Shown here: positions 10,182 to 55,532 of the stretch, piece after piece
How positions within the stretch are numbered: position 1 is the first letter of the stretch
Layout: each line of letters opens with the position of its first letter
Origin: Escherichia virus TH47
DNA length: 64,000 nt
Reading direction: 5' to 3' (one strand)
Sequence record: MT446416.1
Program-made: the position numbers and the translations under genes
Notes under the pieces: generated by a model
What the model was told of the DNA's origin: nothing
The model's input: only the letters and a program-made list of their open reading frames with translations
Databases searched by the model: none

Positions 10182-10204
10182 AATTCGCTCCTTGAATTTT
10201 ATGA

Positions 10205-10233
10205 AATAAAACGGGGCAAACTCCGTTGCCCCT
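10205..10233 (-). terminator. terminator between gene 32 and uvsX
   Basis: Minus-strand reading GGGGCAAcggagtTTGCCCC followed by gttttattt. Confidence 0.55.
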
Positions 10234-10250
10234 TAACTTTTCAAATACTA

Positions 10251-11318: not shown

Positions 11319-11387
11319 TAGTTTGTTTGTTAAGTTTTAACGGGCTATTAACGTTGATTTGTCTTCATTGACTCATCAACAATTTAC

Positions 11388-11417
11388 ATTATATCATGGG
11401 ATTTTTAACCGTCCCAA
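11388..11417 (-). promoter_or_regulatory. sigma70-like promoter (TTGGGA - 18 nt - extended -10 TGATATAAT) upstream of gene 32
   Basis: Minus-strand reading ...TTGGGAcggttaaaaatcccaTGATATAAT..., about 70-95 nt before the gene 32 ATG. Confidence 0.5.
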
Positions 11418-11462
11418 GGTTTTTTACTCTGTTTGTCAAGGCTCATTGCCCTGACAAACATC

Positions 11463-16718
<5,256 letters not shown>

Positions 16719-29537: not shown

Positions 29538-29545
29538 TATTTATA
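29538..29545 (-). promoter_or_regulatory. late promoter box TATAAATA upstream of the major capsid gene
   Basis: Minus-strand reading tttttcagttcTATAAATAatatcatact, about 45 nt before the capsid ATG at 29493. Confidence 0.55.
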
Positions 29546-30746: not shown

Positions 30747-30754
30747 TATTTATA
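30747..30754 (-). promoter_or_regulatory. late promoter box TATAAATA upstream of the scaffold gene
   Basis: Minus-strand reading aaaaaTATAAATAtttgtatg about 50 nt before the ATG at 30699. Confidence 0.5.
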
Positions 30755-32628: not shown

Positions 32629-34365
32629 TTAAAAAGAATCGCCTAAATTATTCGGGTTAAAACCTGCACTTCCTTGTTGTTCTTGGTATTCAGCATCGGC
32701 ACTTTCTAAGTTACCGTCACCATCAATACCCAAATCCATACCAGGATCGTTAGGAGCATCTATACCAACAGATTGCAACCCAGCAGCATCTTCTTCACCA
32801 CTTGACGGAGCGGAACCATCTTGTGGATTTTCTTGGAGCCACATTTGCTCATTCTTAACAATATCAGCTTTAGAGAAGCCCATTTTTTCAAGAATAGTTT
32901 GTTTTGCCATATATGGCAGATCGTTAAGTGGGAGATAGGTGTTAATTAGTTTAGCATCTAGTTCCGCTTTACGATAAGAAGCCAAGTTAATAGGTGGATT
33001 CATAATTACTTCAAAAGATGAAGTACTAATGTTATATCCATTTTTAACCATAAAACGTTTAAATTCTGCATCAAATAGTTTTGCAACCAAACGTTGATAA
33101 CGCATACATTGGTTATTAAAACGTAATTCACTTGCCATTGCTTGTGTTGCACCATCACCAAATAGTGATACACCACCATCATCTGGACCTTGCGGTAGAT
33201 ATGAAGCTGGGATTTGCAATCCACGAATCAATTTATTGTTGAAGTAACGCAAGTCATCAATCTGACCTAAGTTATCACCACCAGGAAGTGTTTGTACATC
33301 TGAACCACGACCTTCAGAAGTTTGTGGGAAGAAGTAATCTTCTAGAATACTTAATGGATTATATGCTGCATCCATTAGAGAAGTACTGCCACCTTTATTT
33401 GAAGGAATACGTCTTTGGTGAATTTCATTTTTGAATCGTTCTACGTATGCCATTGCTTGGTGAGTTTGCATATCACCAACGTCAATTTTAAATACACGAC
33501 GCTCTGGAGCACGTTGAACACGATAGATAATAATACTATCTTCAAGTAATTCTTTTTGTTTATAGACTTTGAAAACATCTTCAAGTATACTAGTACCGAA
33601 AGGCCAAACTCCATCTTGTCCTGTATTTAGGGTTAGATGAATTACGTGTTCTGCACCAACTGGAATAACATCAAGACGACCGTTAGTACTGAATGGGTCA
33701 GCAGAGTTTCCTTGGTTAGTAAAGCCAGATGCACCACCTGCTGCCACTGAACCACCGCCACCTAATGTGGTAGGGATTGCACCAGGGTATGCAGTTTTAT
33801 CAAATCCAACTTGTAAGTTACTAAACACTTTATCTTTAAGATTCAAAGATACGTCACGAATATAATAAATTACAGGGGTTTTTCCGGTTGCTTCGTTAAC
33901 GAATACTTGTTCAACGTTTTTTGGGCTTACCCAGTACCAGTCAAATGTTTCTGGGTCACGAATGAAGAATTGGTCACCGTATTTTAATAGGCCACGTACA
34001 ATTTCATACATTCGGGTTTTAAAATCATTTTGTTCAGTCCATGCATCCAAACGGTCTTCAATAGTAGAAACTTCGGTATCACCAATATCATCTTTGTATT
34101 TGATTTTATATGGAAGACCGAAATCTTCAGTACTTTGTGTACAGAAGTCAGCAATGATATTAAGTGCTGTTCTAATTTCAGGGTCTTGGTCCATCTGGTC
34201 ATACTGACTATAACGTTCAGTACGGTTAGCTAAACCATTGTATACTACTGGAAGATAGGAAGCGAAATTTGATTTCGTTCCTATTGATTTGTTGCTATTA
34301 CTGGACTGATTTGGGACGACCGATAATTTCGATCTCCCCATTGTCATATGTCGTTTCCAACTCAT
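32629..34365 (-). CDS. 20: portal vertex protein (gp20-like)
   Basis: 578 aa ORF upstream of the core/protease/scaffold/capsid genes in T4 order; size and position fit a portal. No single diagnostic motif. Confidence 0.7.
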   Translation of the reverse strand: MSWKRHMTMGRSKLSVVPNQSSNSNKSIGTKSNFASYLPVVYNGLANRTERYSQYDQMDQDPEIRTALNIIADFCTQSTEDFGLPYKIKYKDDIGDTEVSTIEDRLDAWTEQNDFKTRMYEIVRGLLKYGDQFFIRDPETFDWYWVSPKNVEQVFVNEATGKTPVIYYIRDVSLNLKDKVFSNLQVGFDKTAYPGAIPTTLGGGGSVAAGGASGFTNQGNSADPFSTNGRLDVIPVGAEHVIHLTLNTGQDGVWPFGTSILEDVFKVYKQKELLEDSIIIYRVQRAPERRVFKIDVGDMQTHQAMAYVERFKNEIHQRRIPSNKGGSTSLMDAAYNPLSILEDYFFPQTSEGRGSDVQTLPGGDNLGQIDDLRYFNNKLIRGLQIPASYLPQGPDDGGVSLFGDGATQAMASELRFNNQCMRYQRLVAKLFDAEFKRFMVKNGYNISTSSFEVIMNPPINLASYRKAELDAKLINTYLPLNDLPYMAKQTILEKMGFSKADIVKNEQMWLQENPQDGSAPSSGEEDAAGLQSVGIDAPNDPGMDLGIDGDGNLESADAEYQEQQGSAGFNPNNLGDSF

Positions 34366-34377
34366 TATTGTTCGTCC

Positions 34378-36579
34378 TTAACTGTTTCTCTCACCTTGGG
34401 TGTTTTCAGAGATAGTTCTTAGATAATTATTTGTCTGTTGTACAGCAGATAGTGATTGTTCATTAACATCGGCAAGCTTTTTGAGTATTTCTTTCATTTC
34501 ATCAGAAATCGGTGCTGGTGGACCAGTTCTCGATGTCACTGCACTACCATTATTTATCATCTTCTTAATTGCCTCTGTATCGTCAGGTTTTGGTGGAACT
34601 GGTGGTTCACCTGGTGCCCATGCAGTTTTATCAAAATCTTTACGAGATACAGTTATTTCTGGAGCAACGTTATTTGTTTTTTCAATAACAGGGCGAATGC
34701 GTTCTACACCTGGACGGTTGAATAAACTGTCAGCATAGTCAGATGGTAGTGGTGCTGGTTCTTTGTAGTTACGTGCGGTGTTCCATTTATTGAACTTATC
34801 CCACATTCCTGCAAAATAATCACTAACACTATTTACTCCATTGTCAATGATGCTGTTTACGCTTTCTGCTGGGGTTTCAGTACTGTTATTGAGTTTTATC
34901 TCATTATCAGAACCACCACCGAACCAACTTTTAACAGAATTCCATAGGTTACCAGGTAAATCCATTAAGTTATTCATAAAGGTATCAAATGCTTCTGACA
35001 CTTTAGTGTAACCTGAACCGAATATATCTGCACCCAATCCATCCAACCAAGCTGTAAATTCAGCACCAATACGATCAAGGTAAGCAATTGCATCTTTAGC
35101 AATAGGTACTAACCCAAATCCATCAAGAGCCAATTCCCCAATAAACTCCCATGCACCATCAGTTCTGTCTGCAATGTCAGAAAGATAATCCACAATTGAA
35201 TTTTGTGTATTAGCATACATTATATTAAATGGTTCAGTGAATTCTTTACTAATCCACATATTGAAGCGGTTGGTAAATTGAGTTAATTTATCAGCCGGAT
35301 TATTTTGTGCAGCATTGAATCTGGATTCTGCGGCTAGAAGTTCTTTAATTGCAGCAGCAGAAGCAGCCCCTTCAGAACCACGTTGTTGTTGATAATACAA
35401 CTCCATTTCCAATTCACTTTTATTCTTCTTGGTATATTCCATTATTTTGCGTTGTAAATCAACGGAACTGGTCCCAGATCTAACAAGTTCAGAAACGTAA
35501 TTACTAAGATCGAACAATTCAGGAGCTAATATATCATCAGGAAGTGCTCCAGTTGTGATTTTGGAGTTTACTATGCTTAGAAGTTTTGGTCCAAAGTCAC
35601 CCATTGCTGCGGAAGCTTCAACTATATTCTTTGCCGCAGTTGCTGCTGCATCAGAAGTTAGTCCACCTACATGTTCAAGTGATATTGCAATTGATTTTGC
35701 GTCAAGTGAATCATCAAGAGAACTAGTTTTATTCAACAGTGAATCTACCGACTCACCCATTGCTTTACTGAAAGTGGTTATTGTTTTTATAAATTGTTCA
35801 GTACTGCGTTCTTGGTTAGAACGCTGTAGTAATTCTTTACCACCCAATATTTTTTGAACTTTAATATTCCTAGCAGTGAGATCAATTAGTGTTTTTTGAG
35901 ATATGCCATATAAACCAAGTTCTTTCTGTGCAAGTTGGACATTACCAACTAAGTTTGCGAATGCCATTGTTCCATCGCCATACAACGCACCCAACTGGTT
36001 TACTGCTTGGGCATGAACTGACACTGCCTCAGAAAACTGATCAACACTCATCATCGCTGCACCAGCACCTTTCAGTACTGAACCATAACCTTCAGCCAAT
36101 GCAACACCAGCACTGTTAATTCTGGTGTATACTTCCAATTGTGCATTAAGGGCATTGTATACAGCAAGACCAGCACCAGTAACGAGTTTAAATGCTGCTG
36201 CCGCTGCACCAATTGGACCTGGCATCATTGCTAATGAACCAGCAAATGAGGATGCACTAACGCCTAATGAGTTTACTACAGTACTTACGTTGTTACTGGA
36301 GTTCATCATTGTTTTGCTTACATTAGAAACTTCAGAAGATAGTGATTTGAACAATTTACCAAATGCTTTCCCGTCATCGGCTTGTGCACTTCCACGAGTT
36401 CCACGATTACTGGAAGAACTGGAACTGGAACCATTCTTTTTACTATTTGAACCTGATTTTTTCTTATCATTCTTTATATTTTCAGCTAATAACTCACGGA
36501 TAGCAGTCAAACTATCATTGTTATCTTTAGTTTGATTAACCAACTGCTGTAGTAGGTAATCACTTGTATTGACAGCCAT
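34378..36579 (-). CDS. large Ala/Gly/Ser-rich predicted helical virion protein (about 733 aa); tape-measure-like or internal protein, uncertain
   Basis: Start moved to MAVNTSDY. Poly-Ser stretch, long Ala-rich helical core (GAAAAAFKLVTGAGLAVYNALNAQ...), Pro-rich C-terminal part. Confidence 0.55.
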   Translation of the reverse strand: MAVNTSDYLLQQLVNQTKDNNDSLTAIRELLAENIKNDKKKSGSNSKKNGSSSSSSSNRGTRGSAQADDGKAFGKLFKSLSSEVSNVSKTMMNSSNNVSTVVNSLGVSASSFAGSLAMMPGPIGAAAAAFKLVTGAGLAVYNALNAQLEVYTRINSAGVALAEGYGSVLKGAGAAMMSVDQFSEAVSVHAQAVNQLGALYGDGTMAFANLVGNVQLAQKELGLYGISQKTLIDLTARNIKVQKILGGKELLQRSNQERSTEQFIKTITTFSKAMGESVDSLLNKTSSLDDSLDAKSIAISLEHVGGLTSDAAATAAKNIVEASAAMGDFGPKLLSIVNSKITTGALPDDILAPELFDLSNYVSELVRSGTSSVDLQRKIMEYTKKNKSELEMELYYQQQRGSEGAASAAAIKELLAAESRFNAAQNNPADKLTQFTNRFNMWISKEFTEPFNIMYANTQNSIVDYLSDIADRTDGAWEFIGELALDGFGLVPIAKDAIAYLDRIGAEFTAWLDGLGADIFGSGYTKVSEAFDTFMNNLMDLPGNLWNSVKSWFGGGSDNEIKLNNSTETPAESVNSIIDNGVNSVSDYFAGMWDKFNKWNTARNYKEPAPLPSDYADSLFNRPGVERIRPVIEKTNNVAPEITVSRKDFDKTAWAPGEPPVPPKPDDTEAIKKMINNGSAVTSRTGPPAPISDEMKEILKKLADVNEQSLSAVQQTNNYLRTISENTQGERNS

Positions 36580-36715
36580 AACATTCCCTTTTAATAGATG
36601 TATTATAGAAATATTTATGAATCTATAACGAATAAAAAAGACCCATCTATAACATTTGTCCCATTTTTTGGTAATAAATACTACAGAGACATTTATTACA
36701 TGGAGATTTAATAAA

Positions 36716-37552
36716 ATGGCAATGAACCCACTAGCTAAGTATACTAAAATTGAAGAACTTGGTACAAAATTGGTCACAAATGGCGTGATTCCTTATAAAG
36801 AAGGAGTTCTTGGCTCTAAAGGTATCAAATGTGGCATTTGTGCTCGTAGTGCACGTGATGAAATGACACTCAATACACCAGATATGCTTCTAAATGGTGA
36901 TGCAATTGCTCGTGTTATTGAAAACTGCGTACCTAACGTACTTGATGCAGATGAACTTTATGTAAATGACGTAGAGCTACTACTTATCGCTATTAAAGTA
37001 GCTTCTAAAGAAGAATCATATGATATTAATGTGACATGCCCTGAATGTAACAAAGAAGGCCGTTTTGAGCGTAGCTTATCATATCTACTAGAAACAGCAC
37101 AAACTTTCAGTGAAGTTCCTACTGTGCAATTGGATAATGGACTAAGTTTAGAGTTTAGACCACTTACTTGGAAGGAATATTCTAACTTCGCAGAAAGAAT
37201 GTTTACAGAACAACAAAAAACTAAATTCCTTGAAACTGCCGAAATGGAGCAGGAAGAAAAAGTTAAAGTGTTTGGTGAAGTATTTGAAAGTATGGCACAA
37301 CTCAACTTTGATATGATCGCAGGAGTTATTGCTAAGGTAATTACACCTGAAGGTGATGAAGTAACTGAAAACGAATTCATTTCTGAATGGCTAGGTCAGC
37401 AGTCCAAAGGAACACTTAAAATAATTCGTGAAAAAATGGATGAAGTACTTGAAATTGGTGTTTCCCATACTATGGAAGTTGAATGCAGTGACTGTAATCA
37501 TCAATGGGAAATTAATGGACTGAAATATGACCCAAGTCATTTTTTCGCATAA
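36716..37552 (+). CDS. hypothetical Cys-rich protein (about 278 aa; CGIC, CPEC, CSDC pairs)
   Basis: Start moved to MAMNPL (GGAG SD). Three CxxC pairs suggest zinc binding. Diverges from the 733 aa gene. Confidence 0.55.
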   Translation: MAMNPLAKYTKIEELGTKLVTNGVIPYKEGVLGSKGIKCGICARSARDEMTLNTPDMLLNGDAIARVIENCVPNVLDADELYVNDVELLLIAIKVASKEESYDINVTCPECNKEGRFERSLSYLLETAQTFSEVPTVQLDNGLSLEFRPLTWKEYSNFAERMFTEQQKTKFLETAEMEQEEKVKVFGEVFESMAQLNFDMIAGVIAKVITPEGDEVTENEFISEWLGQQSKGTLKIIREKMDEVLEIGVSHTMEVECSDCNHQWEINGLKYDPSHFFA

Positions 37553-37761
37553 TGCTTCTCCACTCATCTCCTGAAGAAATACAAGAAGTACTTAAGGAAT
37601 TTGAGTTGAATAAGTCAGATATTAAAACTGCATTAATGGAGTGTTCTGTTTATATGGAAAGTGTTGATTACGGAACACTACTTAATATGCCACTAATTGA
37701 TAGAGACTTATTAGTTAAGTCTTTTAATAAGAAAATTAAAAAACAAAACGAGAAGCACTAA
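37552..37761 (+). CDS. hypothetical small protein (69 aa)
   Basis: TAATG stop/start overlap with the upstream gene; followed by a strong terminator. Confidence 0.4.
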   Translation: MLLHSSPEEIQEVLKEFELNKSDIKTALMECSVYMESVDYGTLLNMPLIDRDLLVKSFNKKIKKQNEKH

Positions 37762-38600
37762 CTCACAAGGAGCCAGCACATTGTTGCTGGTTTTTTTTTT
37801 GGTTTTAAACTACAGAATTGATTGAATTGAATTTTGAAAGGAATTAATTATTTTATAGTGAACTCATCTAACTCATTTCATTCGTTAGCTGAAGAATATT
37901 CGTTACTACGTAACTCATATTCATTTCTTATAATTAATTATAAAGAACTTTAAAAGATTTAATACTTGACGGGATTTGTTGAAGACATTTTCATCCCCCC
38001 GCAGGGGAATGAAGACAATAAAAAAGAGACAATTAAGTCTCTTAATTCTTGACGCTGATGGTTTCAGCATTTATTGTATTGCGAATTTCTTAAAATTCAT
38101 TAAGAACGAAAGCGGGTTGCTCTGTTTCTCTCTATCGCAGTCATGTGCAACGGTCGTCAGTCTTAATCATCCTGACACTCACCTGAAAGTCTATACAATC
38201 AAACTTCAGGCTGTTTATTAAATCACTTAATAAACTCCCTTAGCAAATCTGGTAAGGTGCGATCCTTATACATCTATCGAGGAACTCTCTGTATGCTTAT
38301 CGGAGTTCTTTATTGAGCCGTGTCGCCGTGAGGGGTTCAAACTATGCCCACATCTAACGGGTTTCTTCTGCTCATCGCACTGTTGAACTGCTCATCTGCC
38401 ATCTACATTTTCGATAGGATCAGGTTCTAATTTATATGCATTTCTGCATTCAACAGGATTGTCATCACTACAATTAACATTATAGCACCAAATTCAAAAG
38501 TGTCTCACTATTATGGTAAAAAATTTATAAAAAGTACATAATTCTTGTTATCTGAAGTAACGCATAAATATTTTGATAAGAATTAGTTTAGTGGGGATTT
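37762..38600. other. about 840 bp noncoding, iteron-like region with hairpins (candidate origin, regulatory region or ncRNA locus)
   Basis: No plausible ORF (only a 81-codon TTG-initiated ORF without SD). Contains AACTCAT x3, ATTCGTTA x2, TTGAATTGAATT, CTGCTCATC x2, two TTGACG boxes and strong hairpins near 37989-38012 and 38283-38307. Confidence 0.5.
37770..37802 (+). terminator. rho-independent terminator
   Basis: CCAGCAcattgtTGCTGG followed by T11, just after the stop at 37761. Confidence 0.7.
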
Positions 38601-39095
38601 ATGAAGAAAAGATTAAAAGATAGTAAAGAAGCTGCAAACTATCGAAATGAATTACTAAAGAAGCAAAAAGGAATTGATCCTATAATTAAGGAACCAATAA
38701 CTAAGCCAGTACTTGATCACTATCACTTCGAGAATCAACACTGTCGCGGGGTACTCCAGAATGAGATAAACGCCTTTGAGGGTAAGGTTTCCAACGCATG
38801 GAACCGATATGGAAAGCATTTAACTGATATGCCATTACATGAAGTACTAAGAAATCTGGCAGATTATCTTGAAAAGAACAATAACATTCCACCTGAAGAG
38901 CAAGTCATACATCACACTGCACTAACTGTGGATGTTAATAAGTTTAAAAGGCTTCCAGCAACACAGCAAAACGCGATTCTGGAAGGGTTAGGAGTTGTCC
39001 CTGGTAGTAACGTCAAGGAGAGAACTAAGCAAGCCAGAAGGCTCATTAAGGACGGTAAATTAAATATGGTAGATGTAAAAAGAGATACAAAATGA
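38601..39095 (+). CDS. 49: endonuclease VII-like protein (gp49 family), lacking the canonical zinc-ligand Cys pairs
   Basis: LDHYHFENQHCRGVLQNEINAFEGKVSNAWNRYG...LHEVLRNLADYLEK aligns with T4 endo VII HLDHDHELNG...VRGLLCNLCNAAEGQMKHKFNRSG...YLEWLENLLTYLK; 164 aa versus 157 aa. Confidence 0.65.
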   Translation: MKKRLKDSKEAANYRNELLKKQKGIDPIIKEPITKPVLDHYHFENQHCRGVLQNEINAFEGKVSNAWNRYGKHLTDMPLHEVLRNLADYLEKNNNIPPEEQVIHHTALTVDVNKFKRLPATQQNAILEGLGVVPGSNVKERTKQARRLIKDGKLNMVDVKRDTK

Positions 39096-40114
39096 AAATA
39101 TCATTACCAAACGAAATAAACTTAAAACACATAAATTACAATACAAAAATGCCACAAGAATATTTTGATGATTTAAGTAAGAGATTATCAAAATATGACA
39201 TTATTTTTAATGGATTTATAATTGAAGATGAATGGAAAGGTAATAACACGTTAACTTCTATAGAATGTGAAGGAAACCTCTACAACAACTATCGAATTAA
39301 TAAATTATACAGATATATTAAACGTATGGATACAAAAGGATATCAGAAACCTAAAGGTTTTAACTTAACCCCTGAACTATTGGTACAAAACGTCAACGAT
39401 GAATGTATAAAACGTGGTGGTAAGATTGAATTTATTGGTTATAAACAATTTAATGGTGCAAAAACATATTTGGAATTGAAATGTAATGATTTGGAATCAC
39501 ATGATGAACCATATGAGTGGTGTTCAACGATTTATGATAGTTTTGTCGGAAACAATAGACATTTGAATGGTTGTCATAAATGTTCAGGTAGATATCATTA
39601 CACTATAGAAGAACTTAACAATAATATAAATTATTTTTGTGAAACACGTGGATTCGTAAACCCAGTATTGATAACTAATGAAACTATGAATGGTGTTAAT
39701 AGTATTGTTTCATTCACCTGTCATTGTGGTGAGAAAGCAACGATGACATATGATAGTTTATCACGTGCTCGTTTTTGTATATTATGCAGCGAAGGTAGTT
39801 ATAAACAATATATTCCTGGTTCATTGTATGTATTAGAAGTATATAAAAATGATAAACATGTGGCATATAAATTTGGTATATCAAACTATGTCCCAAAACG
39901 CCTCATGGAATATGGAAAATCTCCATGTAATGTTAAGATTATTCATCAATATGATTTTGAAGATGGTTCTATTCCATATAAAATTGAAAATAAAATAAAA
40001 AACTCATTACCAATCAGATATCTTACCAAAAATGAGTTCGGTGTAGGATATACAGAAACGATAGATACAACTTTATACGAAGATTTAATTAATATTATAA
40101 AAAAGGGAGCATAA
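39092..40114 (+). CDS. putative homing endonuclease-like protein (Cys-rich N-terminal region plus C-terminal T5orf172-like domain)
   Basis: 340 aa; C-terminus YKFGISNYVPKRLMEY...GYTETI parallels 27181..28179 and the T5orf172 pattern; multiple CxxC pairs; stop lies in the loop of a bidirectional terminator. Confidence 0.5.
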   Translation: MKISLPNEINLKHINYNTKMPQEYFDDLSKRLSKYDIIFNGFIIEDEWKGNNTLTSIECEGNLYNNYRINKLYRYIKRMDTKGYQKPKGFNLTPELLVQNVNDECIKRGGKIEFIGYKQFNGAKTYLELKCNDLESHDEPYEWCSTIYDSFVGNNRHLNGCHKCSGRYHYTIEELNNNINYFCETRGFVNPVLITNETMNGVNSIVSFTCHCGEKATMTYDSLSRARFCILCSEGSYKQYIPGSLYVLEVYKNDKHVAYKFGISNYVPKRLMEYGKSPCNVKIIHQYDFEDGSIPYKIENKIKNSLPIRYLTKNEFGVGYTETIDTTLYEDLINIIKKGA

Positions 40115-44148: not shown

Positions 44149-44235
44149 TATTTCAACTCTCCATGTTTTAAATCCAATAGGTACATTCCTTGTACCATCA
44201 ATGTTATTATAGCACCAAAAACGTCTTTGTCCCAC

Positions 44236-44243
44236 GTATAAAT
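44236..44243 (+). promoter_or_regulatory. T4-type late promoter box TATAAATA
   Basis: Exact TATAAATA about 37 nt upstream of the ATG at 44280, in the divergent region next to the gp55-like gene. Confidence 0.55.
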
Positions 44244-44279
44244 ACATCAAATGTTCCCTTCTTATGGAGAATCAAAAAG

Positions 44280-45011
44280 ATGATTGATCGTAGAATCCGA
44301 TTAAGACCTAAAACCGCAGGTGCTAACTATGTGTATGGTGATTTTGGCAACAGTTCAGAACCAACATTGCTATCGTTTCTGCGTCCAACAAATGGTTTGG
44401 TTTGGACTGTAACCCCAACTGTAACTGAACAAAGGTCTGTTCAATATGAAACACAGTCCCCTATACATACTAACAGTAACTATAACAACTACAAGAATAC
44501 AACAAACACTGTTTTCACTATCCAAGGTGAGTTTTATGCGAACACTGCTGCTGAAGCAATGTATGCATTGGCTTGTGTTCATTTTATTCGTTCCGTGTCC
44601 TTAATGGACTTTGGTCGTCAAGCAGCATCTGCTAATAATCCCGAACTAGCAATTGCAGGTGCACCACCACCAATTTTACTATTAAGTGGGTATGGTCGTT
44701 ATACATATAATGATATTCCTGTTATTTTGAAAGCATATAATTTTACATATCCAAATGATGTGTCTTACATTCAGGTTCCATTGGATAGTAGTGATAGTAC
44801 TTTTAATTTATCTGATATGGATAGTCGTAAATTCTTCGAACAGCTTAGAAGTACTGGATATATGAATCCACAAGATGAGGTATGGGTTCCACAGAAAATA
44901 TCGGTAACGCTTCAACTTGAAGAACAACCAACATCTGATTACATGACTAAAAAGTTCAACCTAAATGCATTTAAGCGTGGTGAACTATTACGTAATGGAG
45001 GATTTATCTAA
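44280..45011 (+). CDS. putative virion/baseplate structural protein (243 aa)
   Basis: Start moved to MIDRRIR (GGAGA SD); perfect TATAAATA about 37 nt upstream; first gene of the plus-strand baseplate cluster. Confidence 0.5.
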   Translation: MIDRRIRLRPKTAGANYVYGDFGNSSEPTLLSFLRPTNGLVWTVTPTVTEQRSVQYETQSPIHTNSNYNNYKNTTNTVFTIQGEFYANTAAEAMYALACVHFIRSVSLMDFGRQAASANNPELAIAGAPPPILLLSGYGRYTYNDIPVILKAYNFTYPNDVSYIQVPLDSSDSTFNLSDMDSRKFFEQLRSTGYMNPQDEVWVPQKISVTLQLEEQPTSDYMTKKFNLNAFKRGELLRNGGFI

Positions 45012-45325
45012 TGTCCAATTATAGTCAATACTCTCCTTATGCAAAGGTTAAACAAACGTGGTATCTTGGTTACAATTTACCACGTGATATGGTTCCTGCT
45101 GATACTGACGACTTCTATGTAATTCCATTGAAGTATGAGCATCAACCTTGGCGTTTAGCATACGAAATGTATGGTAATGAACGTCTGTATTATGTATTTG
45201 CCCTATTGAATCCTGATATATTAGGAGAAGACCCAATATACAATTTTAATAGTGGTATCACAATTCGTGTTCCCTCAAATCAACGAGTGCAAAACTATTT
45301 GAACGGTACTCGTAACATAGGTTAA
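45011..45325 (+). CDS. LysM-like baseplate protein (gp53 / P2 gpX-like), tentative
   Basis: 104 aa; WRLAYEMYGNERLYYVFALLNPDI...GITIRVP resembles the tail protein X / LysM-like pattern; translationally coupled to the upstream gene. Confidence 0.4.
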   Translation: MSNYSQYSPYAKVKQTWYLGYNLPRDMVPADTDDFYVIPLKYEHQPWRLAYEMYGNERLYYVFALLNPDILGEDPIYNFNSGITIRVPSNQRVQNYLNGTRNIG

Positions 45326-45336
45326 TGGAGTAAAGT

Positions 45337-47592
45337 ATGGCAGATTTACAAAGTTCTGTTGATAATTTTAAAAATGATATTTCAAACATCACAAGTTCTG
45401 CAAAGGCAGCAAAAGAAACTGCAACAAGTACTATTGAAAGCTTAAAAGCCACTGCTAATACTTTGCAAAATGATCTTGAAAAAGTAAAAAACAATTTTAA
45501 AGCTAAGGTTAGTAACGTACAGTCTTTACCAAAGCAAAGTGCAAGCGTTGACCAAGTGTATGAAGACTTGGATCTAAGTGAGTTTGTTATTCCTTATGAC
45601 AATAAATTGTTAAAGTATGACAATCCAACTTGGCACTTTTCCCTTTTCGCATTAGACAAGGATGATTTCAAAAACTTCTGGCTTTACCCAGATGCTGAAG
45701 TTCAACGTCATGTCATCTCTGAAAGTGGTGTAACTGGAAAGTATAATATCACAAGTGTTCAGATGACGCAAGCTGGTCCTTCAACTCCAGGGATGACAAC
45801 CAACTATTGCTTCAACACAGCAGTACTGAACCTTTCAGAAAACAATAGTATGAGTTTATATGATGAACTAATTTCTTTAAGTAATAAACTAAGGTATCAT
45901 AAGTTCATGGACTTACCTTTAATATTAGAATTGAAATTTATTGGATTCAATACTAATGGTGTACCTGAAACTATACCAGAAACAACTCGTAAATGGTCCG
46001 TGAAGATTAACAGTGTTACCGCTAGTGCATCACAAAGTGGTAGTACTATGATGTATTCTATGAGTCTTGTTCATAACCGTACTGCTCTAGTGGATAACGT
46101 TGAATGGACTCTTAAAGAACCATTTAACTGCACAGCAGAAAACTTTGGTGATTTTTGTTTTGATTTGGAAGATAAATTGAATCAAATGGCAGACCAACAA
46201 TATGGTTATTTGCGTTATAAATTTGGTGAGTTAGCAGAAGGGAAGTTCTTTGAATTTAAAGTTGCACCAGATTTACAGGATTTGTTTATAAACTATGATT
46301 CTAAACAGATGGCAGAAGCTGGAGCTACAAAAAGTGGTGCACAGGGTTCTAAAAACTTTTCATGGAATCCAAGTACTCCAATTTCTCGAATTATCGATGA
46401 CGTAATAGATACCTGTACTGTACAGGCTGATGATAGTACTAGTGTTCGTCAATTTGTTAATATAATCCCACTTAAACAGTATGTTGGATTTGATAATTAC
46501 CGAAACACGTCAGTTTATAAAGTTGTTTTCTATATAGTTCGTTTTAAAATTGGTGATATTGTTCATGAATCCGATTTACAGCCAGAAAACTTTACATTTG
46601 AGTATTTCTTTGAAAATGCCGAGAAATATGTAGACCCAAATGACCAAAAACCAAAGATTAACATGAAAACTTACAATTATCAGTTTAGTGGACTCAATAG
46701 TGAGATTCTAGACCTTGATTTGAAGTTTGACCAGCAATTCTTTGTGGCTACAACTCGTAACCCTGGGCCAATACAGGATGTTGCTAACCACGCTGGTACT
46801 CATACCTCCCAAGAATTGAATATACAAGGGGTTCAGTACAACAGTATACCAGATGCATGGGCAAAAACAAGTGATTTACGCGTTACACGTGATCTTGGTG
46901 GTATGTTAACACAGGCTCAGGAACAACTACTCAATCAAGTTGAAACTTTAGCAAAAGAACAAATGCAAGTTGGTAATGCTGAAGAACAGGATCGTTATAA
47001 TAACTATCAAGTAAACGTTCTACCACAGTATATTGAAGATTATCTAACCACATATGAAGAAAATGACGGTGGAACCGATGGAATTGGTCATCGATATGGT
47101 GAAGTATTCACAATGCCAACTGAAGCAACCAATAATGAAACAACATTATCTGCATCATTGAACGATAACAGTAGTACATATGAAATGGACCGCCGTAAAA
47201 TTCGTGACAACTATTACAATCGTCCATTCTTGTGTAAATTGGATATGCGTGTAGTTGGTGACCCATATTGGTTAGGTTGGAGTGATTATCCATATATCCA
47301 ATATCTTGAACAGGTAATTAATGGAGAAGATATGGAAATTAATCCAGAAGATTACCATGTAGCAAACTACATTACATCTGAAGCATATCTTTTATTGAAA
47401 TTACAACCTGTAGTTTCTATAAATGATAACACTGGTGTTCTTGATATTAATACCCCAACTACATTTAACCAAACTGTTTATCGTGTAAACAAAATTGTTC
47501 ATGATTTTGGTGCAGGTGGTTCATTTACACAACAAATTCAGGCTGCAATTGTAATTCGTGCACTCAAACGTCACGATAGTATAATTGAATAA
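45337..47592 (+). CDS. putative baseplate/tail structural protein (751 aa)
   Basis: Long ORF with GGAG SD, N-terminal coiled-coil-like segment, immediately upstream of the gp5-like spike gene. Confidence 0.5.
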   Translation: MADLQSSVDNFKNDISNITSSAKAAKETATSTIESLKATANTLQNDLEKVKNNFKAKVSNVQSLPKQSASVDQVYEDLDLSEFVIPYDNKLLKYDNPTWHFSLFALDKDDFKNFWLYPDAEVQRHVISESGVTGKYNITSVQMTQAGPSTPGMTTNYCFNTAVLNLSENNSMSLYDELISLSNKLRYHKFMDLPLILELKFIGFNTNGVPETIPETTRKWSVKINSVTASASQSGSTMMYSMSLVHNRTALVDNVEWTLKEPFNCTAENFGDFCFDLEDKLNQMADQQYGYLRYKFGELAEGKFFEFKVAPDLQDLFINYDSKQMAEAGATKSGAQGSKNFSWNPSTPISRIIDDVIDTCTVQADDSTSVRQFVNIIPLKQYVGFDNYRNTSVYKVVFYIVRFKIGDIVHESDLQPENFTFEYFFENAEKYVDPNDQKPKINMKTYNYQFSGLNSEILDLDLKFDQQFFVATTRNPGPIQDVANHAGTHTSQELNIQGVQYNSIPDAWAKTSDLRVTRDLGGMLTQAQEQLLNQVETLAKEQMQVGNAEEQDRYNNYQVNVLPQYIEDYLTTYEENDGGTDGIGHRYGEVFTMPTEATNNETTLSASLNDNSSTYEMDRRKIRDNYYNRPFLCKLDMRVVGDPYWLGWSDYPYIQYLEQVINGEDMEINPEDYHVANYITSEAYLLLKLQPVVSINDNTGVLDINTPTTFNQTVYRVNKIVHDFGAGGSFTQQIQAAIVIRALKRHDSIIE

Positions 47593-47605: not shown

Positions 47606-50272
47606 ATGGCAGATACAAGTAAGAAATATGCCCAACAACAGTTGGGTCGTTTTGACCCTTCGTATCCACAACTAGCAACCGTGATGGATAACCGTGACCC
47701 AACTAAATCCGGTAAGCTAAAAGTGTGGATTCAAGGTTCACAAAGTGATAAAAATTCAAAAGAGTCATGGATTGAAGCATCATACATGTCTCCATTCGCT
47801 GGTAAAACTCCAGGGATACCAAGTGCTGATGCTTATGGTCAATATCCAAAGGGATATGGTTTTTGGGCGGTTCCACCTGATGTCGGATGTACTGTTGTTG
47901 TTATATTTGCACAAGCAAGAACATTCCAAGCGTATTGGATTGGTTGTGTTTATGACCAACGTATGAATACGATGGTTCCTGGAATGGCTACTGAAATAAG
48001 CAACTATGCTGGTACTGATATGCCATTACCCGTAACTGATTATGACCGTAATACAATTTCTACCAGTACACAAGACAAATATGCAAACGTTCCAATTATT
48101 GCAGGTCTGAAAAAACAAAACTTACTTTATGATGAGGAAGCGGGTGTTGCTAACCGTAGCAGTACTCGCCAAACTACCAGTACGGTTTATGGTCTTTCAT
48201 CACCTCGTGGTAACAGTTTTATTATTGATGATGGTTACACAGAAGAAGAATTAACAGCACCTACATGGGATCAAGATCCAGATGGTTATCAGGATACACA
48301 ATTCAATAACCCAGTAAACGATACTCGCGTTGGTTCTCGTAAAAATGAAGGCGTTGTAATTAAAACACGTAGTGGTGCACAGTTGTTGTTATCTGAAGCC
48401 TCTGGTGATGTTCTTTTAATTAACCGTGATGGTACTGCACGTATTAAATTCACTGGTGAAGGTGACATTGAAATGCACTGTGATAAGAATATTAACATTC
48501 GTGCAGGACAAGATATTAACATGGTTGCTGGTCGCTCATATAATATTGAAAGTGGAGCAGACTTCAATGCTCGTGTTGGTGCAAACACTAAACTAGATTT
48601 GGTTGGTGCATTGGATGCTAAAGTTGGTGGTCAGGTTGTTATTAACGCTGGGGCAGATTTACGTTTAGTAACAGCAGCTTCATTACGTATGCAAAGTGGT
48701 AGCAGTACTGATATAACTGCTGGTTCTAATGCGTCAATCTCTGCTGCTACCAGTGCTAATCTTATTGGTTCTTCATCAGCTATTATTAGTGGTGGTGGTC
48801 AAACTCTTACTGTTAACAGTGGTGGTAATAGTGGTACTGCTGAATTTAATGCACCAAACTTCCGCACCCCATCTGCTGGCTTGAATGAACATATACATGA
48901 TATATCGGCTTGGGTTGATGCAGAGAATCACGGCAGTACTGTTGAACCTCCACGTCAAGGTGGTGGTAGTGGGAATAGTGAATCCCCAGTTCAACCTGAA
49001 CCTGCTAATGATGTAGCTCCAACTTTAGCTCCAGTACAGGACACTGAAGCAATTCAATATGTAAATTATACAACAGAAACAGAACAAGTTCAAACACAAG
49101 ATTTAATGACTTCTGATCCTGGCATGGCTGGTTATAGCATTACGTATGAAGGTCTTCATATGTTCATGCCGTGTAGTGGAACCATTCGCCAATACGGTTA
49201 TTGGGGGAAAGGTGTCCCGACTAGTGGTGGTGGTAAAGCTGATAGAAGTGGCTGGGAAATACAGTGCAAGGGTGATGTTGTAGCTCCAGATGGTGGTGTA
49301 GTTGTTATCACGAATGGTGCTTTATTGGTTCAACATAAGTCTGGATATAAATCTGTATTTTATAATATTCAATCAGATTTGCTCAATAAAGACGTTGTTC
49401 AAAAAGGACAAGTACTGGGGAAAGCTAATGGTGTTATTCAATTTGAAATAAGAGTTACCTCTGCCAACGTACTGGGATTTAGTGGTTCAGTTGACCCTGG
49501 ATTATTCTATGCATCGCAGACTGGTACAGGTTCTGAAGCGGGAAATAAAACATTAATTGCAGGACAAGCAACGAACCAAGCAGCACCGAAAGCTGTTGTT
49601 CAACCTTCTGTTGATAGTGATGAATTAGTTGTCTCCACTAAAATTAAAACCATCGGTACTGGATATTCACAACGTGGTTCTAGGCATGTCCCTCGTCGTA
49701 GAAGAACACAACGTTCAGGTGGTAGTACCGCAGCACCAACTGCACAAGAATCATACAATGTTGGTAATGTTGACAAGACGGCAATTGACTGGAAAGTTGT
49801 TCCTGGTGATTCACAATTTATTTCCGAATTGAAAGAATATGAAGGGACAATGGCGTATCAACAAGCTAAAGGATATTACCGAAATGGTAAATTCTGGAGA
49901 TATTTAGACAGTCGTGGGTTCCCAACCATTGGTTACGGACACTTGATTGTTGGTGGAGAAAACTTCTCTGGTGGTATTACCGAACAGGAAGCCAATGATA
50001 TGTTAGTTCGTGATAGTAGTAAAGCTATATATGATGCCAAATCAATCTACGCTTCTTATAAGATGAAAACACCTTACATGGCACAACAAGTCCTATGTCA
50101 AATGGTCTTCCAGATGGGTAAAGGTGGAGTAATGAAATTCAAGTCAATGCTATCTGAAATGGCGAAAGGAAACTATAAGCAAGCTGCTGCTCAAATCCGA
50201 AATTCTGCTTGGTATCGCCAAACAACTCGTCGTGCTGAATTAATGGCACGAAGATTAGAGGCATGTCAATAA
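47606..50272 (+). CDS. 5: baseplate central spike (gp5-like): OB-fold N-terminus, beta-helix-like repeats, degenerate M23-like segment, C-terminal GH24 lysozyme
   Basis: N-terminus GKLKVWIQGS...GFWAVPPDVGCTVVVIFAQARTFQAYWIGCVYD (gp5/VgrG-type OB fold); repetitive Gly/Ser/Ala middle; M23-like segment with HxH replaced; C-terminal EYEGT...PTIGYGHL...FQMG...WYRQT lysozyme. Confidence 0.75.
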   Translation: MADTSKKYAQQQLGRFDPSYPQLATVMDNRDPTKSGKLKVWIQGSQSDKNSKESWIEASYMSPFAGKTPGIPSADAYGQYPKGYGFWAVPPDVGCTVVVIFAQARTFQAYWIGCVYDQRMNTMVPGMATEISNYAGTDMPLPVTDYDRNTISTSTQDKYANVPIIAGLKKQNLLYDEEAGVANRSSTRQTTSTVYGLSSPRGNSFIIDDGYTEEELTAPTWDQDPDGYQDTQFNNPVNDTRVGSRKNEGVVIKTRSGAQLLLSEASGDVLLINRDGTARIKFTGEGDIEMHCDKNINIRAGQDINMVAGRSYNIESGADFNARVGANTKLDLVGALDAKVGGQVVINAGADLRLVTAASLRMQSGSSTDITAGSNASISAATSANLIGSSSAIISGGGQTLTVNSGGNSGTAEFNAPNFRTPSAGLNEHIHDISAWVDAENHGSTVEPPRQGGGSGNSESPVQPEPANDVAPTLAPVQDTEAIQYVNYTTETEQVQTQDLMTSDPGMAGYSITYEGLHMFMPCSGTIRQYGYWGKGVPTSGGGKADRSGWEIQCKGDVVAPDGGVVVITNGALLVQHKSGYKSVFYNIQSDLLNKDVVQKGQVLGKANGVIQFEIRVTSANVLGFSGSVDPGLFYASQTGTGSEAGNKTLIAGQATNQAAPKAVVQPSVDSDELVVSTKIKTIGTGYSQRGSRHVPRRRRTQRSGGSTAAPTAQESYNVGNVDKTAIDWKVVPGDSQFISELKEYEGTMAYQQAKGYYRNGKFWRYLDSRGFPTIGYGHLIVGGENFSGGITEQEANDMLVRDSSKAIYDAKSIYASYKMKTPYMAQQVLCQMVFQMGKGGVMKFKSMLSEMAKGNYKQAAAQIRNSAWYRQTTRRAELMARRLEACQ

Positions 50273-50284
50273 ATATTTCAGTAC

Positions 50285-50292
50285 TATAAATA
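50285..50292 (+). promoter_or_regulatory. late promoter box TATAAATA (tttcagtacTATAAATAata) upstream of lysozyme
   Basis: Exact TATAAATA embedded in the cagtaCTATAAATAAT context shared with the capsid and core-protein upstream regions. Confidence 0.5.
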
Positions 50293-50309: not shown

Positions 50310-50798
50310 ATGAGTAAATGGGAAATCAAAAATACCGACGAACAATTTTTTAAAGAAATTAAAGAATTTGAAGGTACTATTGCGTATCAGAAAAAACTTG
50401 GTTATTTTAAAAATGATAAGTTTTGGGTATATAAAGACAGTCTAGGTCTTGATACCATTGGTTACGGTCACCTTGTACTTAAGGGTGAAAGTTTCAAAAA
50501 TGGACTCACTGAAGCAGAAGCTGATGCTCTCCTTATAAAAGATGCTCAGACCGCTTACAATGACGCAAAATCAATCTATGATCAATTTGGAATGACTGCT
50601 CCAGTACAGGTTCAGCGTGTATTGTGGTTTATGGTGTTCCAAATGGGTAAATCAAAAGTTTTAAATTTCAAAAAAGCGATGGCTGCTCTTGGTCGTGGTG
50701 ATTATAAAACTGCTGGTAAAGAAATGCGTGATAGTACGTGGTACAAACAAACCACATCCAGAGCGGAGAAGATGGCTCGAATCGTCGAATCCGTATAA
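50310..50798 (+). CDS. e: T4-type lysozyme (GH24, gene e-like endolysin)
   Basis: EFEGT...YKDSLGLDTIGYGHL...FQMG...WYKQT matches T4 lysozyme catalytic Glu/Asp/Thr positions; TATAAATA about 20 nt upstream. Confidence 0.85.
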   Translation: MSKWEIKNTDEQFFKEIKEFEGTIAYQKKLGYFKNDKFWVYKDSLGLDTIGYGHLVLKGESFKNGLTEAEADALLIKDAQTAYNDAKSIYDQFGMTAPVQVQRVLWFMVFQMGKSKVLNFKKAMAALGRGDYKTAGKEMRDSTWYKQTTSRAEKMARIVESV

Positions 50799-51246: not shown

Positions 51247-51279
51247 ATAAATATTTCTATATAATTCATGGAGTGATGT

Positions 51280-51987
51280 ATGAAAAGTTATTATGGTTTC
51301 ATTTATCAATGGGAAGATAGCACCAATGGTATAAAATACATAGGTTCTCATTATGGAGCAACAGATGACAATTATGTGTCATCTAATGTTATAGTTAATA
51401 GAATTTATAAGGGAAGACCACAGGATTTATCAAGAACAGTTTTAGAATATATTATAGTTGATGATAAGAAATTTTTATTGGAGAGAGAACAAAAATACTT
51501 AGATTTGATATTACCCTCTGAATTGTACACGAGTTTAAACAGAAAAAATAAAACCGTGAAATATTACAACATGAAAAGGAATGCATGTGGTGGTAACGGT
51601 GGTGTAGGAAGTAATGGTATGTTGAAAAATAAAATAAAATATTTTAACAAACATACATTTGAACAAAAATTCTTTAGTAGTACTGACATTATACCAGATG
51701 ATTGGGTTAAAGGTGTACCATCCTCAAAGGTTAGCTGTACTGGAAGCACTTGGTATCTGAATATCAAAACTGGGGAAAATAAAAGATTTAAGAATAATCC
51801 AGGTATTGAATGGATTGAAGGTAAACGTAATATTTCAACAACACCAAAAAAAGTAAACACTCCGTATGGAATTTTTGAAAGTGCATCTGAATGTGGTAGA
51901 CAGACTGGGATAAAACAAGCAACTGTAACGTTTAGGTGTCGTTCAAAATCATCTAATATGGCAAATTGGTTTTATATAGAGGAATAA
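51280..51987 (+). CDS. GIY-YIG homing endonuclease (Seg-like)
   Basis: N-terminal YGFIYQWEDSTNGIKYIGSH...EREQKYL is a GIY-YIG module; freestanding gene between gp25-like and gp6-like genes. Confidence 0.7.
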   Translation: MKSYYGFIYQWEDSTNGIKYIGSHYGATDDNYVSSNVIVNRIYKGRPQDLSRTVLEYIIVDDKKFLLEREQKYLDLILPSELYTSLNRKNKTVKYYNMKRNACGGNGGVGSNGMLKNKIKYFNKHTFEQKFFSSTDIIPDDWVKGVPSSKVSCTGSTWYLNIKTGENKRFKNNPGIEWIEGKRNISTTPKKVNTPYGIFESASECGRQTGIKQATVTFRCRSKSSNMANWFYIEE

Positions 51988-55486: not shown

Positions 55487-55532
55487 ATCATAAATAAATC
55501 AAATGAATGAACGAATTATATGGAGTCCAAAA

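What the first reader, a model, noticed from the sequence alone, without database searches (positions are those of the whole stretch)
34378..36579. 733 aa Ala/Gly/Ser-rich helical protein next to the portal gene, where T4 encodes tail tube and sheath
In T4 the genes after portal are tail tube (19) and sheath (18); here there is one long low-complexity helical protein with a poly-Ser stretch and a Pro-rich C-terminus, and no sheath or tube gene in the window. The composition resembles tape-measure or ejected internal proteins, implying rearranged module order.
Basis: inference. Interest (0 to 1): 0.4.

Follow-up and report, generated by a model that had tools for sequence, protein, structure and literature searches.

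The report
Probable tail tape measure protein
The 733-residue helical protein next to the portal gene of this Rak2-like jumbo coliphage is most likely the tail tape measure (the functional stand-in for T4 gp29), which is an ordinary and expected part of a contractile-tailed phage.

Summary
Window 34378-36579 (-) encodes a 733-aa protein rich in Ala, Ser and Gly, predicted to be all-alpha, with a Ser7 run and a Pro-rich stretch at aa 601-700. It ends 12 bp before the portal gene. T4 gp18 and gp19 detect no sheath or tube gene in the window.

The window is a Rak2/121Q-like jumbo coliphage, 98% identical in DNA to phage Turkey3. The protein belongs to PHROG 14121, "virion structural protein". Its orthologues were detected in CBB and phAPEC6 virions.

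It has no detectable similarity to T4 gp29 (PF25671) or to any solved tape measure. I still read it as the tape measure, for these reasons:
- It is transcribed divergently from a gp26/gp51-family hub-assembly gene. This pairing was kept in 7 of 8 contexts examined, including very distant relatives.
- The rest of the hub set is present nearby, including a 751-aa protein shown here to have the gp27/VgrG fold. Only the ruler is missing.
- Relatives range from 600 to 1415 aa, and some carry VanY or lysozyme domains.
- About 10 of 56 distant relatives touch PHROG tape-measure families.
- 733 aa x 0.15 nm is about 110 nm, which fits tails of about 94-123 nm.

A capsid-internal or ejected protein is not excluded. 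Interest is low: some GenBank records already call it a tape measure.

The parts
34378..36579 (-). CDS of the 733-aa virion protein, the probable tail tape measure; stop codon at 34378-34380
   Evidence: Searches give the ORF and start. PHROG 14121 matches full-length at E=7e-238. It is 98.8% identical to Turkey3 and WPEC5 and 63% to 121Q gp597.
36475..36579 (-). aa 1-35: conserved N-terminal helix (MAxxxSDYLLQQL..ND.L.A.RELL)
   Evidence: Alignments A1 and A4; conservation profile.
36355..36474 (-). aa 36-75: variable low-complexity linker rich in Lys, Ser, Gly and Asn, containing the Ser7 run (aa 51-57 = 36409-36429)
   Evidence: Length and composition vary between homologues.
35830..36279 (-). 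aa 101-250: conserved stretch with a hydrophobic Gly/Ala-rich segment (aa ~101-150, ...LAMMPGPIGAAAAAFKLVTGAGLAVY...) followed by the YGDG...GLYGxSQ motif. It is the best-conserved part of the ~aa 100-400 core shared with the most distant relatives.
   Evidence: Kyte-Doolittle maxima of 1.2-1.5 at aa 101-145; highest information content; region matched by the distant hits.
34480..34779 (-). aa 601-700: variable Pro-rich segment holding 15 of the 25 prolines
   Evidence: This is the least conserved part of the family.
34381..34479 (-). aa 701-733: conserved C-terminal helix ending in LRTISENTQGERNS
   Evidence: Invariant in A1. N726 and T727 are invariant across the 26 sequences of A4.
36612..36619 (-). 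CATAAATA, a 7/8 match to the T4 late-promoter octamer TATAAATA, 33 nt upstream of the ATG
   Evidence: Sequence. Exact octamers sit at comparable distances upstream of the capsid, scaffold, gp48/54-like and lysozyme genes. This is inference only.
36716..37552 (+). Divergently transcribed gp26/gp51-family baseplate hub assembly gene (278 aa from the ATG; the mechanical ORF starts at TTG 36656)
   Evidence: Pfam PF12322 E=8e-24; PHROG 150 E=4e-32. PF12322 contains both T4 gp26 and gp51.
32629..34365 (-). T4-type portal gene, co-directional with the target and 12 bp downstream
45337..47592 (+). 751-aa gp27/VgrG-like central hub protein (context for the hub inventory)
   Evidence: AlphaFold2 pLDDT 64, pTM 0.60. 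Foldseek hits to T4 gp27 (1k28_D, 2z6b_D), phi812, Mu, P1 and VgrG hubs, E 1e-7 to 1e-3.
47606..50272 (+). gp5-like hub spike with a C-terminal lysozyme domain (context)
   Evidence: PHROG 13211; Pfam Phage_base_V and Phage_lysozyme.
44190..45325 (+). A PHROG 12050 virion protein labelled gp48 'baseplate tail-tube protein' in fEgEco12 (44190-45011), and a gp53-like wedge protein (45011-45325) (context)

Best explanation
The gene most likely encodes the tail tape measure protein of a Rak2/121Q-like jumbo myovirus, the functional counterpart of T4 gp29.

Inferred mechanism, by analogy with T4 gp29, lambda gpH and T5 pb2. None of these steps is shown here:
- A few copies (3-6) of the largely alpha-helical protein are anchored by one conserved terminus in the central hub, which is built from the gp27-like and gp5-like proteins with help from the neighbouring gp26/gp51-family protein.
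- The tube initiator and tube subunits polymerise around the protein.
- Polymerisation stops when the tube reaches the other conserved terminus, which fixes the tail at about 25 sheath rings.
- On contraction the protein leaves the tube ahead of the DNA.
- Its conserved hydrophobic Gly/Ala-rich segment (aa ~101-150) may then insert into the envelope to line the DNA path.

Shown here or in cited papers: it is a real, conserved, late-type gene; its orthologues are virion components; it is predicted all-alpha; its gene neighbourhood is conserved; and the other hub proteins are accounted for nearby.
For: - **Virion component.** The orthologue CBB_251 (orthology checked) gave 29 peptides and 50% coverage in purified virions (PMC5259590). 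phAPEC6 gp231c (63% identical) was also detected (PMC7247149).
- **Gene context.** The target shares a 136-bp divergent intergenic region with a PF12322 (T4 gp26/gp51 family) gene. In T4, gene 29 lies in the same divergent unit, 26 <- -> 51-27-28-29. The PF12322 pairing was found in 7 of 8 contexts examined: the window, L007, L008, L010, L014, L015 and L016, but not in L009.
- **Inventory by elimination.** Homologues of gp25, gp53, gp5 and gp6, a protein that a relative's record labels gp48, and a gp27-fold protein shown here are all within 20 kb. No gp29 homologue is found. The other large virion proteins of the lineage are not helical rulers. These are the 751-aa hub, the 3300-aa giant, phAPEC6 gp323c and phAPEC6 gp158c. 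Three have beta-rich or globular composition, and the hub has a gp27 fold.
- **Architecture.** The prediction is 74% helix with no strand. Both termini are conserved, there is a conserved hydrophobic segment, and there is a variable Pro-rich stretch. T4 gp29 has the same overall layout.
- **Variable length.** Family members range from 600 to 1415 aa around a shared core, as expected for a ruler.
- **Cell-wall hydrolase domains.** Some long relatives carry VanY or tail-lysozyme domains, as many tape measures do.
- **Weak links to tape-measure families.** About 10 of 56 distant relatives also match PHROG families named 'tail length tape measure protein' (best E 4e-17). In the two cases inspected, the matched region overlaps the family core.
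- **Fold search.** After family members, the named BFVD Foldseek hits are mostly tape measure or minor tail proteins. This is weak: E 1e-3 to 0.5, TM about 0.1.
- **Length.** 733 aa x 0.15 nm is 110 nm. phAPEC6 has a 94-nm, 25-ring contractile section. CBB has a 123-nm tail that includes a 7-nm collar and a 15-nm baseplate.
- **Existing annotations.** Some GenBank records already call the orthologue a tape measure: vB_Ec-M-J, pEa_SNUABM_12 and pEa_SNUABM_50.
Against: - There is no detectable homology to any characterised tape measure:
  - Pfam PF25671 and all other Pfam families are negative.
  - BLASTP and hhalign against the T4 gp29 family are negative.
  - Three profile searches of PDB sequences returned only designed helical bundles and apolipoproteins.
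  - NCBIfam tape-measure models are negative on 56 relatives.
  - Foldseek against the PDB found nothing.
- The structural model is low-confidence (pLDDT 45), so 'helical' rests on a weak prediction.
- The PHROG and BFVD tape-measure hits could reflect shared helical, compositionally biased sequence rather than common descent.
- The gene is co-directional with the portal/head-morphogenesis operon and 12 bp upstream of it, so position alone also fits a head protein.
- The CBB mass-spectrometry signal (29 peptides, with no portal entry in the stretch of the table retrieved) is high for a 3-6-copy protein.
- The residue-to-length ratio is only roughly right: this protein is 24% longer than gp29, but by my recollection of 23 sheath rings in T4 the tail has only about 9% more rings.
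- PHROGs files the family under 'head and packaging'.
Confidence: 0.65

Rival explanations
1. It is a capsid-internal or ejected protein. It would be packaged in the head, for example as part of the 91 x 18 nm inner body seen along the portal axis in phAPEC6. It would be ejected through the portal and tail with or before the DNA, and its hydrophobic segment would help form a trans-envelope channel.
For: - The gene lies 12 bp upstream of the portal and is co-directional with the portal, core, protease, scaffold and capsid module.
- This adjacency to the portal is conserved in distant relatives.
- PHROGs places the family in 'head and packaging'.
- phAPEC6 has an inner body whose proteins are unidentified.
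- CBB_251 gives a strong mass-spectrometry signal.
- Hydrophobic segments and cell-wall hydrolase fusions also occur in ejection proteins such as T7 gp16 (own knowledge).
Against: - phAPEC6 gp231c gave 1 peptide and 1.4% coverage, against 9 peptides for the portal and 14 for the capsid protein. That is too little for a bulk inner-body component.
- The N-terminal I-R-E and L-A-E motifs that could be T4-type prohead-protease sites are not conserved in the family; the Glu is replaced by D, T, Q or K.
- The phAPEC6 authors point to RCC1-domain proteins as inner-body candidates.
- This reading would leave the phage with no tape-measure candidate among its large virion proteins.
- The pairing with a hub-assembly gene is equally conserved.
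Confidence: 0.15
2. It is a tail or baseplate-associated structural protein that is not the length ruler. Examples would be a hub plug, or an anchoring scaffold for the unusual tail-hair and fibre network of Rak2-like phages.
For: - It is a virion protein next to a hub-assembly gene.
- Rak2-like tails carry extra fibre rings and decoration proteins that have no assigned genes.
- AlphaFold2 gives a moderately confident folded helical region at aa ~180-425 (pLDDT 55-87) rather than one long rod.
Against: - The family is also present in very distant phages, on contigs of 133-312 kb. It is therefore not tied to the Rak2-like group, the only group in which tail hairs have been reported.
- A two-fold length range around a fixed core is unusual for a fixed structural part.
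- A ruler would still be missing from the genome.
Confidence: 0.12
3. It is an assembly-only scaffold or chaperone that is absent from mature particles.
For: It is a helical, low-complexity protein next to the head-morphogenesis genes.
Against: The protein was detected by mass spectrometry in purified virions of two relatives. NCBI RefSeq labels the orthologues in 121Q, RaK2, GAP32 and K64-1 'virion structural protein'.
Confidence: 0.03

Closest known systems
PHROG 14121 'virion structural protein' (121Q gp597, CBB_251, phAPEC6 gp231c, RaK2 orthologue)
   Same: The match is full-length, E=7e-238. Identity to these proteins is 31-99%. All have the same flanking genes.
   Different: Nothing differs; the target is a member. 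The family has no experimentally established function, and its annotations conflict: hypothetical, structural, tape measure, pore-forming pb2, and even major capsid protein.
T4 gp29, baseplate hub subunit and tail length determinator (Pfam PF25671 T4_Tape_measure)
   Same: - Both come from contractile-tailed phages with T4-type portal, protease, capsid and hub genes.
- Both genes lie in a unit divergent from a gp26/gp51-family gene.
- Both are long proteins with conserved termini, an internal conserved hydrophobic segment and Pro-rich variable stretches.
- The ratio of residues to tail length is comparable.
   Different: - No sequence or profile similarity is detectable.
- The target is 733 aa against 590 aa.
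- The hydrophobic segment is near the N-terminus (aa 101-150) instead of central (aa 226-250).
- The target is adjacent to the portal, whereas T4 gene 29 is followed by genes 48 and 54.
T5 pb2 (pore-forming tail tip protein, the T5 tape measure) and lambda gpH
   Same: All are long helical proteins with hydrophobic segments. Relatives of the target carry peptidoglycan-hydrolase domains (VanY, lysozyme), as pb2 carries a muralytic domain (Boulanger 2008, listed in the references seen). The fEgEco12 record labels the orthologue 'pb2'.
   Different: No tape-measure chain of any phage appeared in three profile searches of PDB sequences. The window protein has no hydrolase domain. The host phage is a myovirus, not a siphovirus.

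Membership tests
PHROG 14121 (Rak2-like virion structural protein) | Full-length match to the family profile | tested here: met
   E=7.2e-238, residues 1-733 against profile positions 1-745 of 745.
T4 gp29 tape measure family (Pfam PF25671) | Significant match to PF25671 | tested here: not met
   No hit at E<=1. Positive control: T4 gp29 scores 1389 bits.
T4 gp29 tape measure family (Pfam PF25671) | Profile-profile similarity to an alignment of gp29 homologues | tested here: not met
   hhalign probability was 0.3% with alignment A1 and 7% with A4, over 26 columns only. BLASTP best E was 0.26.
T4 gp29 tape measure family (Pfam PF25671) | Gene lies in the hub gene unit next to a gp26/gp51-family gene | tested here: met
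   The PF12322 gene is divergent, 136 bp away.
Tail tape measure proteins (functional class) | Long, predominantly alpha-helical virion protein | tested here: met
   74% helix with no strand in the AlphaFold2 model, at low pLDDT 45. Orthologues are in virion proteomes.
Tail tape measure proteins (functional class) | Length matches tail length at about 0.15-0.17 nm per residue | tested here: inconclusive
   The prediction is 110-125 nm. Relatives have a 94-nm contractile part (25 rings, phAPEC6) and a 123-nm whole tail (CBB). The range is compatible, but the known relatives vary too little in size for a real correlation test.
Tail tape measure proteins (functional class) | Sequence similarity to any curated tape-measure model or solved tape measure | tested here: inconclusive
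   The target itself shows none. About 10 of 56 distant relatives hit PHROG tape-measure families. NCBIfam models are negative.
Tail tape measure proteins (functional class) | Only candidate ruler among the large virion proteins of the genome | tested here: met
   The other large virion proteins examined are a gp27-fold hub, a gp5-like spike, a gp6-like wedge, a beta-rich giant, and beta-rich gp323c and gp158c of phAPEC6. The whole genome was not scanned, and only part of the phAPEC6 proteome table was retrieved.
Tail tape measure proteins (functional class) | Occupies the tube lumen and sets tail length | not testable with these tools
   This needs cryo-EM or length-variant genetics.
Capsid-internal / prohead-protease-processed head proteins (T4 internal proteins, phiKZ inner body) | Conserved N-terminal targeting or cleavage motif ((L/I)-x-E for S77-type proteases) | tested here: not met
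   I-R-E at aa 27-29 and L-A-E at aa 31-33 exist in the window protein, but the Glu is not conserved across alignment A4.
Capsid-internal / prohead-protease-processed head proteins (T4 internal proteins, phiKZ inner body) | Located inside the capsid | not testable with these tools
   Only whole-virion proteomes are available.

The most novel reading that the evidence does not exclude
The family may not be a simple ruler. It could be the ejected, membrane-inserting conduit or inner-body-associated protein of the Rak2-like and allied T4-superfamily jumbo phages. It would be encoded in a conserved three-gene cassette (gp26/51-like, this protein, portal) that couples hub nucleation to the head vertex. 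In that case tail length in this clade would be set by a still unidentified protein or mechanism.
Probability: 0.12. Interest if true: 0.5.

Novelty: new member of a known kind. Interest (0 to 1): 0.2.

Why it matters
- Naming this gene completes the tail and baseplate parts list of the Rak2/121Q-like jumbo phages, where most genes are still 'hypothetical'.
- It would clean up contradictory public annotations. The same protein is labelled hypothetical, structural, tape measure, pore-forming pb2 and even major capsid protein.
- It shows that a large, mostly metagenomic branch of the T4 superfamily uses a tape-measure family with no detectable similarity to gp29. This family always sits between a gp26/51-like gene and the portal, which makes it a handy positional marker.
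- None of this changes how we think tails are built.

Tried and rejected
**Direct homology to T4 gp29.** BLASTP, the Pfam PF25671 model and hhalign with two family alignments were all negative.

**Homology to solved tape measures.** I searched PDB sequences with three profiles: close relatives (A1), the wider family (A4) and the core of distant relatives (A5). They returned only designed helical repeats and bundles and apolipoproteins, which I treat as compositional noise.

**NCBIfam tape-measure models.** They were negative on 56 relatives.

**Foldseek of the target model against the PDB.** Nothing reached E<=0.001. The model is too poor for this to count against any reading.

**The 751-aa neighbour as an alternative tape measure.** The Atu_ph07 paper places a 'tape measure gp701' near the lysozyme hub. 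I rejected the neighbour because its predicted fold is gp27/VgrG-like. I could not map Atu_ph07 gp701 onto the GenBank record, because the record carries no such labels. None of the seven Atu_ph07 baseplate-region proteins I tested matches the target family HMM.

**Other large virion proteins as rulers.** The 3300-aa giant protein and phAPEC6 gp323c and gp158c are beta-rich or globular by sequence.

**The 'pore-forming tail tip protein pb2' label.** It appears in the fEgEco12 record, but the fEgEco12 paper says nothing about it and I found no supporting similarity.

**The late-promoter octamer.** It is suggestive but not over-represented: 6 found against 7.9 expected.

**RNA features.** Rfam and tRNA scans of the window found nothing.
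Full report
**What is there**

The mechanical ORF is 34378..36777 on the minus strand. All homologues begin at the ATG at 36579 (MAVNTSDYLLQQL...), which follows an AAGGGA Shine-Dalgarno-like element.
- Ala, Ser and Gly make up 28.8% of residues, against 19.4% in the other long ORFs of the window.
- There is a Ser7 run at aa 51-57.
- 15 of the 25 prolines lie in aa 601-700.
- AlphaFold2 with a 9-sequence alignment predicts 26 helices, 74% helix and no strand. Confidence is low: mean pLDDT is 45, and only aa ~180-425 reach 55-87.
- The T4-type portal gene (32629-34365, minus strand) starts 12 bp downstream.
- T4 has the order 18-19-20. tblastn with T4 gp18 and gp19 finds nothing in the window.

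**Where the window comes from**

The protein is 98.8% identical to proteins of Escherichia phages Turkey3 and WPEC5. It is 81% identical to the BF17/fEgEco12 group, 63% to 121Q, PBECO4 and phAPEC6, and about 31% to Klebsiella phage RaK2. Window DNA is about 98% identical to Turkey3, apart from two insertions. This is a Rak2/121Q-like jumbo myovirus.

The protein matches PHROG 14121, 'virion structural protein', over its full length (E=7e-238). It matches no Pfam family. Public annotations of the orthologues disagree: hypothetical, structural protein, tape measure, 'pore-forming tail tip protein pb2' and, wrongly, major capsid protein.

**Is it in the virion?**

- CBB_251 is the orthologue. It is 722 aa and sits between the gp26-like CBB_250 and the portal CBB_252. 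It gave 29 peptides and 50% coverage in CsCl-purified CBB virions (PMC5259590).
- phAPEC6 gp231c (79.7 kDa) gave 1 peptide and 1.4% coverage (PMC7247149).

So it is a virion protein, but the two data sets disagree on abundance.

**Neighbourhood**

Upstream, across a 136-bp divergent intergenic region, lies a 278-aa protein of Pfam PF12322 (E=8e-24). PF12322 contains both T4 gp26 and the hub-assembly protein gp51. In T4 the tape measure gene 29 lies in the same kind of unit: 26 <- -> 51-27-28-29-48-54.

Further upstream in the window are:
- endonuclease VII and gp46/47-like genes;
- a sigma-factor gene, as annotated in the relatives' records;
- a PHROG 12050 virion protein that the fEgEco12 record labels gp48 'baseplate tail-tube protein';
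- a gp53-like protein;
- a 751-aa 'virion structural protein';
- a gp5-like spike with a lysozyme domain;
- a second lysozyme;
- gp25-like and gp6-like proteins;
- a giant protein of about 3300 aa.

I modelled the 751-aa protein (pLDDT 64, pTM 0.60). Its fold matches central hub proteins: T4 gp27, the phi812, Mu and P1 hubs, and VgrG (E 1e-7 to 1e-3, probability 1.0). The hub set is therefore complete except for the ruler.

**Relatives and their contexts**

An exhaustive HMMER search found 128 representative clusters. There are full-length relatives of about 680-740 aa. More distant ones of 600-1415 aa share the core, roughly aa 100-400.

In seven of the eight contexts examined, a PF12322 gene lies at most three genes upstream on the opposite strand. 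A T4-type portal follows wherever the contig extends far enough, then an S77 protease and Gp23. These contexts are the window and six metagenomic loci, including contigs of 133, 182 and 312 kb. The eighth locus, L009, has no PF12322 gene.

Some long relatives carry VanY or tail-lysozyme domains. About 10 of 56 also match PHROG families named 'tail length tape measure protein'. In the two cases I inspected, that match overlaps the family core.

**Tests of homology to known tape measures**

All were negative for the window protein:
- PF25671;
- BLASTP and hhalign against a gp29 family alignment;
- three profile searches of all PDB sequences, which returned only designed helical proteins and apolipoproteins;
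- NCBIfam;
- Foldseek against the PDB.

Foldseek against BFVD lists family members first. The named hits after them are mostly tape measure or minor tail proteins, at weak scores and a TM of about 0.1. That is resemblance by class, not proof of descent.

**Interpretation**

I favour a tape measure, at about 0.65. The reasons are:
- the protein is in the virion;
- the predicted architecture is all-alpha with two conserved termini, a conserved hydrophobic segment and variable Pro-rich spacers, which is also the layout of gp29;
- the gene is coupled to a gp26/51-family hub gene across very deep divergence;
- length varies two-fold around a fixed core;
- relatives carry hydrolase fusions;
- every other large virion protein I could check is something else;
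- the length fits: 733 aa x 0.15 nm is 110 nm, against 94 nm for the 25-ring contractile part of phAPEC6 and 123 nm for the whole CBB tail.

The mechanism is inferred from T4, lambda and T5, not shown here. It comprises anchoring in the hub, templating of tube polymerisation, termination at the far end, and ejection ahead of the DNA with possible membrane insertion of aa ~101-150.

**Rivals**

A capsid-internal or ejected protein (about 0.15) is kept alive by three facts: the gene runs straight into the portal/head operon, CBB gives a strong mass-spectrometry signal, and phAPEC6 has an inner body of unknown composition. Three things count against it:
- phAPEC6 yielded only a single peptide;
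- the putative (L/I)-x-E protease sites near the N-terminus are not conserved;
- the phage would then lack any ruler candidate.

A non-ruler tail or baseplate protein (about 0.12) and an assembly-only scaffold (about 0.03, contradicted by the proteomes) are the remaining options.

**Comparison and novelty**

The protein is a member of PHROG 14121. It works like T4 gp29 but fails the sequence tests for membership of PF25671, so I file it as an analogue, not a homologue. Some GenBank submitters have already labelled orthologues as tape measures, and nobody has tested this. The finding is an ordinary structural gene of a known phage group.

The modest additions from this work are:
- the conserved gp26/51-like, tape measure, portal cassette across a large metagenomic clade;
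- the identification of the 751-aa neighbour as the gp27-like hub;
- the demonstration that the family is unrelated in sequence to gp29.

Interest is 0.2.

Noticed in passing
window 39085-40098 (ORF 39092-40114, +): A 340-aa endonuclease gene (PHROG 681; Pfam MUG113/T5orf172, GIY-YIG-like) is inserted between endonuclease VII and the gp46-like gene. It is absent from the 98%-identical phage Turkey3 and from fEgEco12 and 121Q, so it looks like a free-standing homing endonuclease.
   Followed up: partly
window 51264-51979 (ORF 51280-51987, +): A second insertion relative to Turkey3 is a 235-aa homing endonuclease (PHROG 314, with a weak I-TevI DNA-binding domain). It lies between the gp25-like and gp6-like baseplate genes.
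   Followed up: partly
window 45337-47592 (+): The 751-aa 'virion structural protein' (PHROG 11190, no Pfam hit) has a predicted gp27/VgrG-type central hub fold with about 350 extra residues. It is not annotated as a hub in any relative record I saw.
   Followed up: yes
window 50310-50798 (+) and 47606-50272 (+): A stand-alone 162-aa lysozyme is a paralogue of the C-terminal lysozyme domain of the adjacent gp5-like spike. It matches PHROG 13211 positions 727-885.
   Followed up: no
window 37762-38600: About 840 bp carry no ORF of 82 aa or more, between the 69-aa gene and endonuclease VII. The stretch is bounded by terminator-like hairpins at 37755-37796 and 38024-38068. There is no Rfam hit, and the region is unannotated in Turkey3.
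   Followed up: partly
window 29538-29545, 30747-30754 (-); 44237-44244, 50285-50292 (+): Exact T4 late-promoter octamers TATAAATA sit about 18-52 nt upstream of the capsid, scaffold, gp48/54-like and lysozyme genes. The target has the 7/8 match CATAAATA at 36612-36619. Overall the octamer is not enriched (6 found, 7.9 expected).
   Followed up: partly
window 55503-64000 (+), runs off the window: This is the start of the giant virion protein of about 3300 aa (382 kDa in phAPEC6), which follows the gp6-like wedge gene. It is aromatic-rich and globular in composition. Its function is unknown.
   Followed up: no
L008 (JGI 3300050213 contig, gene 10001-13684) and other distant loci L010, L014, L015, L016: Distant family members of 1100-1415 aa keep the same flanking genes. 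Some have acquired VanY-type peptidase or lysozyme domains, which suggests cell-wall hydrolase modules were gained repeatedly within this family.
   Followed up: partly
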